From assembly GCA_030600585.1 (NCBI GenBank), contig JAUVLU010000004.1, forward strand, positions 19,016 through 83,015: a DNA stretch of 64,000 nt, in the 5' to 3' direction. Positions 10,889 through 13,831 of this stretch are shown here, piece after piece; the first letter of the stretch is position 1, and each line of letters begins with the position of its first letter. Origin of the DNA: Candidatus Cloacimonadota bacterium. Its GTDB lineage: Bacteria; Cloacimonadota; Cloacimonadia; Cloacimonadales; TCS61. Under the pieces are notes generated by a model, which worked only from the letters and a program-made list of their open reading frames with translations, was not told the origin of the DNA and ran no database searches. A program made the translations under genes and the position numbers.

Positions 10889-13831
10889 ATGAAGAAAACA
10901 TTTACTATGTCTTTTTTATTATTCATCACTTTTGTTAATGCAACTATTATCAATGTTCCAGCAGATCAACCAACAATCCAAGAAGGTATTAATGTTGCAG
11001 TTGATGCAGACACCGTTCTTGTACAACCTGGAACTTATATAGAAAATATCAACTACAATGGAAAAAATATTACGGTTGCTTCATTATTTCTCACTACTCA
11101 AGATACTTCATATATTTCTCAAACAATAATTGATGGTAATAACAATGAGCGAATTGTTTCTTTTACAAATGGAGAAACCGAAGAAGCAAAATTGATCGGA
11201 TTAACTATTAGAAATGGTTATGGTTATTATGTCAATCAACAAGACGCATGTGGAGTTGGTATTTATATTTTAAATAGCTCTCCTTCAATAGAAAATAATA
11301 TAATTGAGGATAATGATAGTTACTGGTATGTTAATGGGTGTGGGTTAGGAATTCAAAATTCATCAGCTAAGATCAAAAACAATATTATCAGGAACAATAA
11401 TGGTGGATACTTCGGTGGTGGAATATATGTTTATCAATCCGAAAATGTTGTAATAGAAAATAATGTAATTTATGATCATCATACGATTAGTGGATATGGT
11501 GTTGATTATGGAGCGGGAATTTGTATCAATCAATCAAGTGATATTTTAATTCAAAGTAATCTTTTATATAACAATGCGGTTGGATTTTCGGGTGGTGGGA
11601 TAGCTTGTAGAGACAATAGTTCCGTATGTTTGATAAACAATACAATTACAAAAAATCATTCGGGTGGAAGCGGATCTGGCATATATTGCACATCTCAAAC
11701 CTCTGAAGTTGAAATTCTTAATACTATTATCTGGAATAATCAGCCAAATACCAGTGCACAAGTATTTGGTGAAAATATTATAGTGAATTACTGTGATATC
11801 CAAAATGGTTATTCCGGGATTGGTAATATAAACAGCAATCCTCTTTTTGAAGAACCAGCCGCTGGTAATTTTTCTTTAACTCTTCAATCTCCCTGTATCA
11901 ATTCCGGTGATCCTGAGTATGAGCTTGATCCTGATGGAACAATCGCTGATATTGGTTTTCAATATTTTGATATGAGCGAATATGGTTCGATATCGGGTAC
12001 AGTCAGCCTTTCAGGTGGATACGGAAATGTAGAAAATACAGTTATAACATGTAATGGTTTCCAAACTAATCCCAATGAAGCTGGATACTATTTTTTCCAC
12101 TTAACTCCAGGATTTCATGACCTTACTGCATCATTAGAAGATTATGAGAGCATTGAGTTTAATAATATTGAGGTTCTCCAGGGTCAAACCACTTCTAATA
12201 TTAACTTCGATTTACAATACGTCGGTTCTAATGGGATTATTAATATTGCACAAGACGGTTCAGGTGATTTCATTACTATCCAGGAAGGGATCAATGCTGC
12301 AACTGGAGGAGATACGATTCTTGTTCATCCTGGCACATATTTTGAAAACGTTAATTTTTATGAAAAAAATCTCATTCTAGGTAGTCTGTTTCTTACAACT
12401 CAAGATAGTTCGTATATTGAAATGACCATTTTAGATGGAATGGACAACAATCACACTATAATGATAGAAAATAATTCTAACAATTTAACAAGAATTTGCG
12501 GATTTAAACTTTTAAACTCAAGTCATGATTACTATTGTATATTTGGTTTCAATGTTTCACTAAATATCAATAATAATATTATTACAAATACTGTTAAATC
12601 AGGTGTAAAAATCAATTTTTCTTCAATGTTGGAAATAAAAAACAACAAATTTTTGAATAATGGCAGTAAAGGTTTAATCATCTATTATGCAAATAATACA
12701 ATTTTAGAAGACAATGTTTTTGATGATAACAGTATTGGGATTAGTTCTAATAATTCTTATGCTATAATAAAAGATAATACTTTTTCCAATAATACTTGGG
12801 GAATTTCAGGAAATAGCACAGGAACAATTATAAAAAATAATTACTTCACAAATAATTTAGATGGAGTTAGTTGTCATGGTTTTTCTCCTACTATTAACTG
12901 CAATATTTTCTTAAACAATCAGAATGGTATTTATATCTCTAGCAGTTCAAATCCGTTAGTTGTCAATAACCTGATCGTTGAGAATGAGAATGATGGAATA
13001 ATTTGCTTAGGATCAACTTCACCAATAATTGTTAATAACACGATTGTTAATAACAATGAGGGGATATCTTGCCATTATAATTCCGGTTCACCTCAAATAA
13101 TAAATTGTATAATTTTTTTTAATGATTCAAGCTTTGATAGTTATTGGGATGAAACTACTACAACGATTTCTTATTGCTGCATTGAAGACAGTTTACCAGC
13201 TAATGCCATAAATGGAGGTGGAAACATTATTATTGATCCTGATTTTGTGGCTTATGATGATTTTCAATTATCGGAAAACAGTCCATGTATAGATACTGGA
13301 ACACCAGATACTACAGGATTGAATTTACCACCTTGGGATATAATCGGTAATCATCGTATCTGGGATGGAGATGGAAACGGAATTGCTATTATTGATATGG
13401 GAGCTTATGAATATGGTGCTCCACCTTATGTAGATATAGATGACAATGTAATTATTCAAACTTCTGAAATCTCTTTACATCAGAATTATCCAAATCCATT
13501 TAATCCAACAACAACTATTTGTTTTGAAACCACGAATTTATACAAATTTGCACAAATAGAGATTTATAATATCAAAGGGCAGAGAGTTAAAACTTTGTCT
13601 GTCACCCTGAGTCCCGAATCTTCGCTCGGGAAAGGGTCAGACAATAATTATATTAATATTCCCAGTCCTTCGGCTACGCTCAGGATGACACGAGCAGGGA
13701 GTAAATATTATTCAGTCATCTGGAACGGCACTAACCAAAATAATCAACCTGTTTCATCAGGAGTTTATTTATATAAGTTGAATGTGGATGGTAAAACTGA
13801 AGAAGTTAAAAAATGTTTGTTGTTGAAATGA
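10889..13831 (+). CDS. secreted right-handed beta-helix repeat protein with T9SS C-terminal sorting domain
   Basis: The ORF track starts at TTG 10877. ATG 10889 follows GGAGG and gives the signal peptide [18 protein letters not shown]. Two homologous modules ([18 protein letters not shown]...GTYIENI and [22 protein letters not shown]...GTYFENV) are followed by NN-rich beta-helix repeats. The C-terminal YPNPFNPTT...[12 protein letters not shown]...WNGTN...SGVYLYKL domain is interrupted by a repeat (see 13600-13690). Confidence 0.8.
   Translation: [980 protein letters not shown]
13600..13690 (+). mobile_element. MITE-like palindromic repeat inserted in frame inside the T9SS sorting domain
   Basis: Terminal inverted repeats tgtcaccctgag (13600-13611) / ctcaggatgaca (13679-13690), of the same family as 24411-24492, 3068 and 44443. 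It encodes [34 protein letters not shown], at the position where the two sister sorting domains have only about 11 residues between KTL and VWNG. Confidence 0.7.

What the first reader, a model, noticed from the sequence alone, without database searches (positions are those of the whole stretch)
13600..13690. MITE-like repeat inserted in frame inside a T9SS C-terminal sorting domain without breaking the ORF
The element has terminal inverted repeats tgtcaccctgag / ctcaggatgaca, identical in type to the intergenic copies at 24411-24492 and 44443.

The sister sorting domains at 10.6 kb and 33.2 kb have 11 residues between KTL and (V/I)WNG. This protein has 39 ([39 protein letters not shown]). The frame stays open to the normal ...CLLLK stop.

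The insertion falls between beta-strands of the domain that the T9SS sortase recognises. It may abolish secretion or anchoring, making a cryptic pseudogene, or it may be tolerated as a loop.
Basis: partly seen in the sequence, partly recalled or inferred. Interest (0 to 1): 0.6.

Follow-up and report, generated by a model that had tools for sequence, protein, structure and literature searches.

The report
Hairpin repeats translated inside secretion-signal loop
Two copies of a tiny hairpin-forming DNA repeat found across many bacterial phyla are read through as a floppy 36-residue loop in the secretion tag of a Cloacimonadota surface protein, and the same loop of this tag turns out to be a family-wide hotspot for such repeats, probably a tolerated one.

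Summary
ORF 10877-13831 (984 aa) ends in a T9SS type-A sorting domain (CTD). Its KTL...VIWNG loop is 39 aa, against 11 aa in the two sister domains of the window.

About 36 of the 39 codons (13600-13711) are repeat DNA. This is not one MITE. It is an inverted doublet of two different short hairpin modules of one family ("F1": T-GTC-[5-bp stem]-GAG-[loop or hairpin]-CGA-[stem']).

- F1 has about 60 copies in this 2.58-Mb Cloacimonadota MAG, mostly intergenic.
- An exact 24-mer of F1 occurs in well over 15 phyla.
- Empty sites exist in congeners: an intergenic site, ValRS (+11 aa in frame), and a T9SS cargo gene beside the same HAD-hydrolase gene, not orthologous to the 984-aa gene. The loop of that gene is repeat-free, single-module or doublet depending on the species.
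- The same doublet sits in the same loop of at least four other cargo genes from other assemblies.
- At least 70 CTD genes in 9 genera of this family carry an F1 module at exactly this position.
- Other hairpin repeat families occupy the loop too.

AlphaFold keeps the beta-sandwich and gives the insert low confidence. The best reading is a selfish, REP/RPE-like repeat tolerated at the tip of the s3-s4 hairpin of a cleavable export signal. It is not a pseudogene. The mobilising enzyme is unknown.

The parts
10877..13831 (+). Gene for a 984-aa secreted protein: signal peptide, right-handed beta-helix repeats, carboxypeptidase-regulatory-like domain, T9SS C-terminal sorting domain
   Evidence: ORF. 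Pfam Beta_helix 2.3e-30 and NosD 1.8e-18.
13472..13831 (+). T9SS type-A sorting domain (CTD), split by the insert
   Evidence: TIGR04183 scores 36.3 bits against a cut-off of 23, in two stretches; the best is residues 6-45 to profile 2-39/72. Pfam Por_Secre_tail matches only profile 2-35/75, whereas the sister CTD matches 2-71/75.
13600..13643 (+). Left F1 module, long type: T-GTC-ACCCT-GAG-[TCCCGAATCTTCGCTCGGGA]-A-AGGGT-CAGA; translated [13 protein letters not shown]
   Evidence: Sequence. Fold -19.9 kcal/mol, z -3.5, 0/200 shuffles. 97.6% identical copy in the CTD loop at C13 and a 92% copy in reverse orientation in the CTD loop at C2.
13644..13659 (.). AT-rich spacer of the doublet (..DNNYIN..)
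   Evidence: Conserved as GACAATAATTAT.. in the doublets of L021, L022 and G007.
13660..13711 (-). Right F1 module, extended type, on the minus strand: (flank)-CTCCC-TGCTCGT-GTC-ATCCT-GAG-CGTAGC-CGA-AGGAC-T-GGGA; translated on the plus strand as [15 protein letters not shown]
   Evidence: A 34-nt, 82% inverted match to 24390-24423 and a 25-nt, 92% match to 44443-44467.
24398..24495 (.). Intergenic F1 doublet (stems ATCCT and ATGGT) between convergent genes
   Evidence: Absent from the orthologous site in five congeners; a variant element is present in three.
44443..44468 (+). Intergenic single F1 module TGTCATCCTGAGCGGAGACGAAGGAT
2995..3117 (.). Divergent pair of F1 modules (minus-strand module about 2995-3045; plus-strand module 3069-3117, stem ATGGT)
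   Evidence: genome coordinates C48:22046 and C48:22084.
37792..37829 (+). F1 module with stem ACACT/AGTGT and an inner hairpin
10451..10738 (+). Sister CTD with the canonical 11-aa loop, used as the natural 'no insert' comparison
   Evidence: AF2 pLDDT 85, with s3 (42-51) and s4 (54-60) forming a tight hairpin. No excess folding of the loop DNA (z -0.3).
33006..33293 (+). Second sister CTD with the canonical 11-aa loop
   Evidence: z 0.5.

Best explanation
The 13600-13711 stretch is a non-autonomous, selfish palindromic repeat. It is an inverted doublet of two hairpin modules of a very widespread family, called F1 here, with consensus T-GTC-[5-bp stem]-GAG-[short loop or extra hairpin]-CGA-[stem'].

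It lies in frame at the tip of the s3-s4 beta-hairpin of a T9SS type-A sorting domain and is translated as a disordered excursion of about 36 residues. The beta-sandwich still forms. The sorting domain is a removable export signal, so the protein very probably remains a working T9SS cargo.

The family behaves like REP/REPIN and Rickettsia RPE elements. It sits mostly between genes, is present or absent at orthologous sites, has sub-families with compensating stem changes, and survives inside genes only in frames without stops.

Shown:
- family membership;
- empty sites at other loci;
- the in-frame state here and in many other CTDs;
- the predicted retention of the fold.

Inferred:
- that the doublet reached this particular CTD by exchange between the roughly 130 paralogous CTD-coding 3' ends, through recombination or gene conversion using the highly conserved s3 and s4 codons as homology arms, rather than by a fresh transposition;
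- that it is selectively neutral or nearly so.

The enzyme that moves F1 is not identified.
For: Family and structure
- 7 hits against 0.25 expected in the window.
- 52-74 sites in the genome, about 50 of them intergenic although only about 11% of the genome lies outside long ORFs.
- Eight stem variants with exact complements: ATCCT/AGGAT, ACCCT/AGGGT, ACACT/AGTGT, ATTCT/AGAAT, ATCTT/AAGAT, ATGGT/ACCAT, ACTCT/AGAGT, ATTGC/GCAAT.
- Anchored on the loop motif alone, 21 of 87 sites have at least 4 Watson-Crick pairs, against a permuted mean of 4.4 and maximum of 11.
- Six inverted doublets in the genome.
- The exact 24-mer is found in more than 119 loci from Patescibacteria (candidate phyla radiation), Acidobacteriota, Bacteroidota, Planctomycetota, Verrucomicrobiota, Firmicutes, Proteobacteria, Spirochaetota and others.

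Mobility
- The doublet at 24398-24495 is absent at the orthologous site in G001, G005, G009, G011 and G013.
- ValRS carries +11 aa (SVILSGVEG..) in G000, G006 and G008, and +21 aa in G002. It has none in 18 other genomes, including the close relatives G007, G011 and G004.
- Copy number is patchy, from 0 to 64 per genome, even within a genus.

CTD loop
- Five CTDs in this genome carry F1 modules, in both orientations and in different reading frames.
- In 11 congeners one orthologous cargo gene lies beside the same HAD-hydrolase gene; it is not orthologous to the 984-aa gene. Its loop is 8 aa without F1 in G002, G011 and G009; a single module in frame 2 in G006, G001 and G013; a single module in frame 1 in G005, G008 and G004; and a 41-aa doublet in G007. 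The rest of the CTD stays orthologous.
- The same doublet is present in P0002, P0003 and P0004. There the element DNA is better conserved than the flanking CTD codons.
- 73 exact junction matches in 15 of 151 genomes, 0 in the reversed-pattern control. One of the 73 is a chance hit outside a CTD.

Selection filter
- The module is open in four of six frames. All four open frames, and neither stop-containing frame, are seen in coding copies (own translation).

Fold
- AF2 gives sandwich strands at pLDDT 80-96 and the insert at 33-65.
- The sister CTD scores pLDDT 85.
- Foldseek hits include FlgD-Ig, PorU, PorZ and a T9SS-bound CTD.

Exchange between CTDs
- Loops fall into near-identical classes shared by unrelated proteins.
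- Within a class the loop is 96-97% identical, against about 64% for the rest of the CTD.
Against: - No strict orthologue of the 984-aa gene was found, so the empty state of this very site is not shown.
- No target-site duplication and no autonomous partner were found, so 'mobile' rests on presence/absence patterns only.
- The element replaces most of the native loop instead of adding to it, here and in ValRS. A simple cut-and-paste insertion does not predict this.
- The fixed codon position in at least 70 genes, and the higher conservation of the element than of neighbouring codons, could also mean targeting or selection on the nucleic acid.
- The right module alone does not fold better than shuffles (z 0.16).
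Confidence: 0.7

Rival explanations
1. Targeted insertion. Each CTD-loop copy is an independent integration by a site-specific or structure-specific mechanism that recognises the conserved DNA around the s3-s4 codons (..AARGGNCARAARGTNAAAACNYTN..), so the loop is a true landing pad rather than a place where copies merely survive or are exchanged.
For: - The junction is at the same codon in 70 or more genes: 38-nt spacing for the frame-2 type and 48-nt for the extended frame-1 type.
- At least four unrelated repeat families occupy the same loop.
- Orthologues in one genus carry different module types.
- The ValRS insert is at the identical position in two lineages whose sister species lack it.
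- CTD loops are about 0.17% of the genome yet hold 5-6 of roughly 10 coding F1 modules.
Against: - Intergenic F1 copies have no common flank resembling the CTD site.
- Insertions in ValRS, a restriction-modification-like gene and a 630-aa ORF share no such target.
- No nuclease or transposase is associated with F1.
- A module occurs in reverse orientation in one CTD.
- Loop classes shared at 96-97% identity between otherwise 64%-identical CTDs fit short-tract conversion equally well.
- Genomes of other families with 30-52 F1 copies show no CTD-junction hits. Their CTDs may not match the search pattern, so this point is weak.
Confidence: 0.15
2. Functional nucleic-acid element. The hairpins inside CTD-coding sequence are selected as RNA or DNA structures and the peptide is a by-product. 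They could act as intragenic attenuators or terminators, as mRNA-stability or protein-binding sites that co-regulate T9SS cargo genes, or as recombination signals for shuffling CTD 3' halves.
For: - The element is better conserved than surrounding codons.
- About a third of the 130 CTD loops in this genome encode strong hairpins or three-way junctions (-12 to -25 kcal/mol), whereas canonical loops do not fold.
- One class contains a terminator-like stem followed by T6.
- The stems of most coding copies are still 4-5 of 5 paired.
- The F1 core is identical across phyla.
Against: - The same modules lie in ValRS, in a restriction-modification-like gene and mostly in ordinary intergenic DNA with no common neighbour.
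- Orthologues do well without them.
- Several coding copies show decaying stems: P0002_L, P0003_L, P0004_L/R and G007_R.
- No Rfam family matches.
- High conservation is also expected for young or homogenised selfish copies.
Confidence: 0.1
3. Cryptic pseudogene. The 36-residue insert disables recognition or folding of the sorting domain, so the protein is no longer secreted and the gene is decaying.
For: - The HMM match to the sorting domain is split, and the full-length protein no longer reaches the Pfam threshold for Por_Secre_tail.
- The insert is three times the normal loop length.
- No expression data are available.
Against: - The 984-codon frame is intact.
- Doublet-bearing CTDs are intact in at least four other genes from other assemblies. 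Their conserved CTD residues (NPFNP, KGQ, WNG, SSGVY, KK.LLLK) are preserved while the insert has diverged in sequence yet stayed in frame.
- AF2 keeps the sandwich.
- Single modules at this site are common in annotated, intact Cloacimonadota cargo proteins.
Confidence: 0.05

Closest known systems
Rickettsia palindromic elements (RPE), 'selfish DNA in protein-coding genes' (Ogata et al. 2000, as summarised in PMC10969869)
   Same: Both are short palindromic repeats found between genes and in frame inside many unrelated ORFs, including housekeeping enzymes. They are translated as extra surface peptide and are compatible with fold and function.
   Different: - The sequences are unrelated and no RPE model of NCBIfam matches the loop.
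- F1 modules are far shorter (25-50 nt against about 100-150 bp).
- F1 occurs across many phyla rather than one genus.
- About half of the coding copies here concentrate in one loop of one domain family.
REP elements, including intragenic GTAG- and CGTC-tagged REPs and REP dimers (Di Nocera et al. 2013, PMC3733652); REPINs with RAYT transposases
   Same: - Stem-loops of 20-40 nt with a conserved tag at one end.
- Sub-families with alternative complementary stem residues.
- Frequent inverted dimers.
- Location mostly downstream of genes.
- Some copies inside genes (tRNA synthetases are named in that paper), encoding 20-30 aa.
- CGTC REPs also lack a dedicated transposase.
   Different: - The tag is TGTC: T precedes GTC in 112 of 136 copies from other phyla and 47 of 60 here. 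It is neither GTAG nor CGTC.
- The stem is only 5 bp and is followed by a conserved GAG...CGA internal motif.
- The Y1/RAYT-like genes of this genome are flanked by other hairpins.
- Y1 gene counts do not track F1 counts. G066 has 45 F1 copies and no Y1 gene. G020, G029 and G071 each have 12 Y1 genes and no F1.
Bacterial MITEs that form in-frame fusions (Correia/NEMIS, ERIC, Nezha, Coxiella QMITE; review PMC10969869)
   Same: Small, non-coding, terminally inverted, multi-copy, and occasionally read through as part of a host ORF.
   Different: No target-site duplication could be defined at the one clean empty site. No parent IS was found. The two 'ends' are separate modules that also occur singly.

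Membership tests
T9SS type-A C-terminal sorting domain (TIGR04183 / PF18962) | Profile match above the curated cut-off at the extreme C-terminus | tested here: met
   TIGR04183 scores 36.3 bits against a cut-off of 23, in two stretches split by the insert. Pfam gives 31 bits against 27 on the isolated domain, first half only. The domain ends at the stop codon.
T9SS type-A C-terminal sorting domain (TIGR04183 / PF18962) | Seven-stranded Ig-like beta-sandwich (RgpB CTD, PMC4804311) | tested here: met
   The AF2 model has six confident core strands and one short low-confidence strand inside the insert; pTM 0.67. Foldseek hits PorU 6za2, PorZ 5m11, FlgD-Ig and 8glk_D at weak E-values.
T9SS type-A C-terminal sorting domain (TIGR04183 / PF18962) | Genome encodes the T9SS sortase and machinery, and the domain is cleaved on export | tested here: inconclusive
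   A PorU-like ORF lies in the window (58894-62199): 385 bits over profile 366-1095, below the 420-bit cut-off. Cleavage and export cannot be tested here.
MITE | Terminal inverted repeats, small size, many copies | tested here: met
   11 of 12 terminal match, about 110 nt, and about 60 family copies. However, the arms are two different modules.
MITE | Target-site duplication and a related autonomous IS with the same ends | tested here: not met
   No clear duplication at the empty or filled site. No recurrent neighbouring gene in 117 loci from many phyla. No F1 next to the Y1 or PDDEXK_3 genes.
REP / REPIN with RAYT | Conserved GTAG (or CGTC) tetranucleotide at one end of a short palindrome | tested here: not met
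   The tag is TGTC.
REP / REPIN with RAYT | Inverted doublets and sub-families with compensating stem changes | tested here: met
   Six doublets and eight complementary stem variants. Permutation control.
REP / REPIN with RAYT | Cognate RAYT gene flanked by the same repeats, and co-occurrence across genomes | tested here: not met
   Eight or nine Y1_Tnp genes are flanked by other hairpins. F1 copy number and Y1 gene number are uncoupled across 151 genomes.
Rickettsia palindromic elements (RPE) | In-frame residence in unrelated ORFs with the host fold preserved | tested here: met
   CTDs, ValRS, a restriction-modification-like ORF and a 630-aa ORF. AF2 model.
Rickettsia palindromic elements (RPE) | Sequence membership in an RPE family | tested here: not met
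   No NCBIfam model matches the loop peptide at E up to 10. The host is Cloacimonadota.
Any curated RNA family (Rfam 15), including hammerhead and other small ribozymes | Covariance-model match | tested here: not met
   No match at gathering score in the window. Only chance-level hits (E 3.5-6) at 13560-13740.

The most novel reading that the evidence does not exclude
The s3-s4 hairpin tip of the T9SS sorting domain may be a dedicated cassette site in this Cloacimonadota family. Hairpin-forming DNA units of several families would be written into and swapped among more than 100 cargo genes by a structure-directed or site-directed process. Once there, they would act on the nucleic acid, for example as intragenic attenuators or common protein-binding hairpins that tie the cargo regulon together. 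The pan-bacterial TGTC-stem-GAG..CGA-stem' module would then be a functional structured element with an unknown partner rather than junk.
Probability: 0.1. Interest if true: 0.8.

Novelty: new variant of a known kind. Interest (0 to 1): 0.55.

Why it matters
In-frame palindromic repeats are known from Rickettsia, Wolbachia and some REP-rich proteobacteria. This case adds three things.

1. It describes a very small hairpin module whose 24-nt core is identical in bacteria from more than 15 phyla. No named family, Rfam model or transposase was found for it.

2. It shows one loop of one protein domain, the removable T9SS export signal, collecting repeats of at least four families. That loop turns over between sister species while the rest of the domain stays put. 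This is natural evidence that the tip of the s3-s4 hairpin of the sorting domain tolerates 3 to 30 extra residues, which is useful for engineering T9SS cargo tags.

3. It carries an annotation warning. Such inserts split the HMM match, so real T9SS cargo can be missed, and the repeat-encoded peptides (VILSGVEG, CHPE.VEGRG, ..LRMT..) can be mistaken for conserved motifs.

Tried and rejected
- **Known RNA family or ribozyme.** The GUC + CUGAG...CGAAG core looks superficially hammerhead-like, but it lacks the G8/A9 and GAAA core positions. Rfam gives nothing.
- **Strict orthologue of the 984-aa gene with an empty loop.** The protein belongs to a large beta-helix paralogue family. The best congeneric hits are partial: 58-77% over the N-terminal part. 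The gene beside the same HAD-hydrolase gene in congeners is a different cargo. Only indirect empty sites could be shown.
- **RAYT/IS200-type Y1 transposase as the mobiliser.** Y1 genes are present but are flanked by other hairpins. Their counts are uncorrelated with F1 copy number.
There are four such genes and none is flanked by F1.
- **Any recurrent neighbouring gene** around 136 F1 copies in 117 loci from many phyla. None was found.
- **Target-site duplication** at the 24.4-kb empty site. Only an ambiguous A/T-rich ATTTTA.
- **Literature search for the sequence itself.** Only primers turned up. No paper was found on repeats in Cloacimonadota CTDs.
- **Modelling an artificial deletion of the insert.** This was not attempted because only natural sequences can be submitted. 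The natural sister CTD was modelled instead.
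Full report
**1. The observation**

The window is C48:19016-83015 of a 2.58-Mb, 34% G+C assembly. Close protein relatives are named Candidatus Cloacimonadota/Cloacimonetes.

ORF 10877..13831 (984 aa) has a signal peptide and right-handed beta-helix repeats. It ends ...[38 protein letters not shown]. The two other sorting domains of the window have 11 residues there.

tgtcaccctgag (13600-13611) and ctcaggatgaca (13679-13690) are present. The 11-mer occurs 7 times in the window against 0.25 expected, including 24412 and 44444.

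**2. Anatomy**

The stretch is two different modules in inverted orientation.
- The left module (13600-13643) is T-GTC-ACCCT-GAG-[inner hairpin TCCCGA..TCGGGA]-A-AGGGT. It folds at -19.9 kcal/mol, z -3.5.
- The right module (13660-13711, minus strand) is an 'extended' type. It has an outer stem CTCCC/GGGA around GTC-ATCCT-GAG-CGTAGC-CGA-AGGAC. Its 5' flank matches the copy at 24390-24423 (34 nt, 82%).
- About 108 nt, or 36 of the 39 loop codons, are therefore repeat DNA. The native loop was replaced rather than split.
- The whole element folds with z -2.8. The canonical sister loops do not fold (z -0.3 and 0.5).

**3. The family (F1)**

The genome has 52 sites matching GTCA[CT][CTA]CTGAG. A stem-aware scan finds eight stem variants, each with its exact complement, and six inverted doublets.

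Anchoring only on the loop motif, 21 of 87 sites have at least 4 Watson-Crick stem pairs, against a permuted mean of 4.4 and a maximum of 11. Sixteen of these are preceded by GTC.

About 50 copies are intergenic, although ORFs of 120 aa or more cover 89% of the genome.

The hosts include Patescibacteria (candidate phyla radiation), Acidobacteriota, Bacteroidota isolates (Flavobacterium, Pedobacter, Sphingobacterium), Planctomycetota, Verrucomicrobiota, Firmicutes, Proteobacteria, Spirochaetota, Gemmatimonadota, Nitrospirota and others. These copies are mostly intergenic and often have an inverted partner.

The base before GTC is T in 112 of 136 of those copies and in 47 of 60 here.

No Rfam family matches. 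No neighbouring gene recurs.

Within Cloacimonadota the copy number is patchy, from 0 to 64 per genome, even within the genus.

**4. Mobility and empty sites**

(a) The intergenic doublet at 24398-24495 is missing from the orthologous site of five congeners and is replaced by a variant in three.

(b) ValRS of this genome has SVILSGVEGARTLK where 18 relatives have DG.G.
- The +11-aa insert is shared with G006 and G008.
- G002 has a further nested insert.
- The close relatives G007, G011 and G004 lack it.

(c) In 11 congeners the gene beside the same HAD-hydrolase gene is one orthologous T9SS cargo (tail ..YFYQLVIDGKVAAKNKMMLLK). Its s3-s4 loop differs by species:
- SIFNNQSS-type, without F1, in G002, G011 and G009;
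- a longer heptamer run in G010;
- a single module read as VILSG.EG in G006, G001 and G013;
- a single extended module read in the other frame as S/CHPE..EGRG in G005, G008 and G004;
- a 41-aa doublet, PVTLSGDEGLGNNNINTPSPSPIKSGLRMTQAGSKQSS, in G007.

That gene is not the orthologue of the 984-aa gene. No strict orthologue of the 984-aa gene was found.

**5. The CTD loop is a hotspot**

This genome has about 130 ORFs ending in the sorting domain. At least 53 have diverse 11-aa loops. The others fall into near-identical loop classes shared by unrelated proteins.

- Five CTDs carry F1 modules: the finding, C13, C86, C17 in another frame, and C2 in reverse orientation.
- Other classes are built from other dispersed repeats. 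One is CGTTCCCAAAGAGGGCTTTGGGAACGAG, with 39 intergenic copies and loop ..FPNRGLGTRS.
- Two more are three-way-junction-like units encoding DILESASPSPFFADGVGYS and DILECINCFDAKA... Another is a run of heptamer repeats.
- Within a class the loop DNA is 96-97% identical, while the rest of the CTD is about 64% identical.
- Across 151 Cloacimonadota genomes the exact junction KGQ-codons + 15-30 nt + GTCAYCCTGAG occurs 73 times in 15 genomes. Thirteen of these genomes belong to the window's own family. The reversed-pattern control gives 0, and one of the 73 is a chance hit outside a CTD.
- The spacing is nearly always 38 nt or 48 nt.
- Among 120 public homologues, about 25 carry F1 peptides in this loop. 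P0002, P0003 and P0004 carry the same doublet.
- In their DNA the element is better conserved than the flanking CTD codons.

**6. Consequence for the protein**

TIGR04183 still passes its cut-off but in two pieces. Pfam sees only the first half.

AlphaFold2, with a 25-sequence alignment, gives a sandwich whose core strands score pLDDT 80-96. Residues 46-77, the insert, score 33-65.

The sister CTD gives pLDDT 85, with s3 and s4 forming a long tight hairpin. The insert therefore sits at the tip of the s3-s4 hairpin, using the strand names of the RgpB CTD (PMC4804311). In Porphyromonas that domain is cleaved off by PorU after export, according to the same paper. Foldseek finds FlgD-Ig, PorU, PorZ and a T9SS-bound CTD.

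A PorU-like gene lies in the window at 58894-62199, scoring 385 bits, just under the cut-off.

The module is open in four of six frames (CHPERSRR, VILSGVEG, SFDSAQDD, PSTPLRMT). All four, and only these, are seen in coding copies. This is the signature of a selection filter on random or copied insertions.

**7. Mechanism: what is shown and what is inferred**

Shown:
- a structured, dispersed repeat that is polymorphic in presence or absence;
- in-frame copies in several genes;
- a strong concentration in one CTD loop;
- a predicted intact fold.

Inferred:
- Spread between CTDs is by recombination or gene conversion. The codons of s3 (..YNIKGQKVKTL) and s4 (..IWNG) are highly conserved at DNA level among paralogues. 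This would explain the fixed position, replacement instead of addition, shared loop classes and differences between orthologues.
- The insert is tolerated because the CTD is a disposable signal.

Unknown: the enzyme that moves F1.
- Y1/RAYT-like genes exist, but they have their own flanking hairpins.
- Their counts do not track F1. G066 has 45 F1 copies and no Y1 gene; G020, G029 and G071 each have 12 Y1 genes and no F1.
- GxxExxY nuclease genes are not flanked by F1.

**8. Comparison with the literature**

In-frame palindromic repeats are known as RPEs (review PMC10969869) and as intragenic GTAG/CGTC REPs, including dimers encoding 20-30 aa and copies in tRNA synthetases (PMC3733652). That paper also notes sub-families with alternative complementary stems and says that CGTC REPs lack a dedicated transposase.

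F1 works like these elements but fails their membership tests. The tag is TGTC, there is no RPE model hit, and there is no cognate RAYT.

I found no paper describing this module or repeats in T9SS sorting domains. This is a limited, open-access search.

**9. Verdict**

The element is best filed as a new variant of the known kind 'selfish palindromic repeats translated inside genes'. Two points go beyond the ordinary: a pan-bacterial mini-hairpin family without a name or a known enzyme, and a domain-specific hotspot in the T9SS export signal.

Noticed in passing
G000 C49:13937-14596 (minus strand; ValRS, 895-aa ORF): A single F1 module is read in frame inside valyl-tRNA synthetase (..KYPFKE-SVILSGVEGARTLK-YVTVATTRPET). 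The +11-aa insert is shared with G006 and G008 and absent from 18 other Cloacimonadota, including close relatives. Two lineages carry it at the identical position while their sister species lack it.
   Followed up: yes
G002 ValRS (L173) and G000 C57:~2639-2655: A second, roughly 30-nt element (CCTGCCA.ATCGAAGC..) is nested inside F1 modules right after GTCATCCTG, in two unrelated places. F1 itself may be a target for another mini-element.
   Followed up: no
G000 CTD genes, e.g. C17:12567-12851, C59:4561-4845, C53:68311-68595, C21:28267-28551: About a third of the roughly 130 sorting domains have s3-s4 loops made of other dispersed repeats. These are a TTCCCAAAG..CTTTGGGAA hairpin, two three-way-junction-like units (one with a terminator-like stem plus T6), and heptamer runs. 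Loops are 96-97% identical within a class while the rest of the domain is about 64% identical.
   Followed up: partly
window 13535-13575 and many other CTDs (s1-s2 loop): The first variable loop of the sorting domain ([30 protein letters not shown] classes) also falls into near-identical classes. These look like translations of heptamer-type intergenic repeats (CACGAAT.., CACAGAG..).
   Followed up: no
window 10715-10881 and 13808-13974: A 167-nt stretch is duplicated at 93% identity behind the two adjacent cargo genes. It covers the last 24 nt of the gene plus the downstream hairpin TTGTATCCAAGCCCCAGCTTGGATACAA. This suggests that the 984-aa gene arrived or was exchanged through recombination at the conserved 3' end.
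   Followed up: no
window 58894-62199 (+): A PorU-like (C25 peptidase/T9SS sortase) ORF of 1102 aa with its own sorting domain scores 385 bits over profile 366-1095, just under the NCBIfam cut-off of 420.
   Followed up: partly
G000 C53:78603-79970, C78:2089-2640; L095:3655-4053: F1 modules at gene ends are read through as C-terminal extensions: an AroA-like ORF ending ..IVILSPENRGRI.., a 184-aa ORF, and an RlmN-like ORF of another phylum ending ..CHPERSRRKKRN.
   Followed up: no
G000 C77:14700-15700, C38:35700-36500, C49:24740-25570, C21:75370-76250, C10:31840-31960: Each RAYT-like Y1 transposase gene is flanked by its own pair of hairpins (e.g. CACGTTCAAGGTGAACGTG; CCCACGA.GGA.TCGTGGG; CGTTAACAAGTTG.ACTTGTTAACG). 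Several separate REP-RAYT-like systems therefore coexist with F1.
   Followed up: partly
window 17484-17721: A tandem array of a 14-nt unit (AGAAATCAGAAAGC-like, about 12-17 copies) lies in an intergenic region.
   Followed up: no
window 15603-15675 and 44601-44673: There are two 73-nt copies (77% identical) of an F1-like variant that begins CTGTCTTTCTGAGG and ends ..CGAAGAATCTC. The second lies just downstream of the F1 module at 44443 and a GxxExxY-type repeat (TTCACCGCAAAG..).
   Followed up: no
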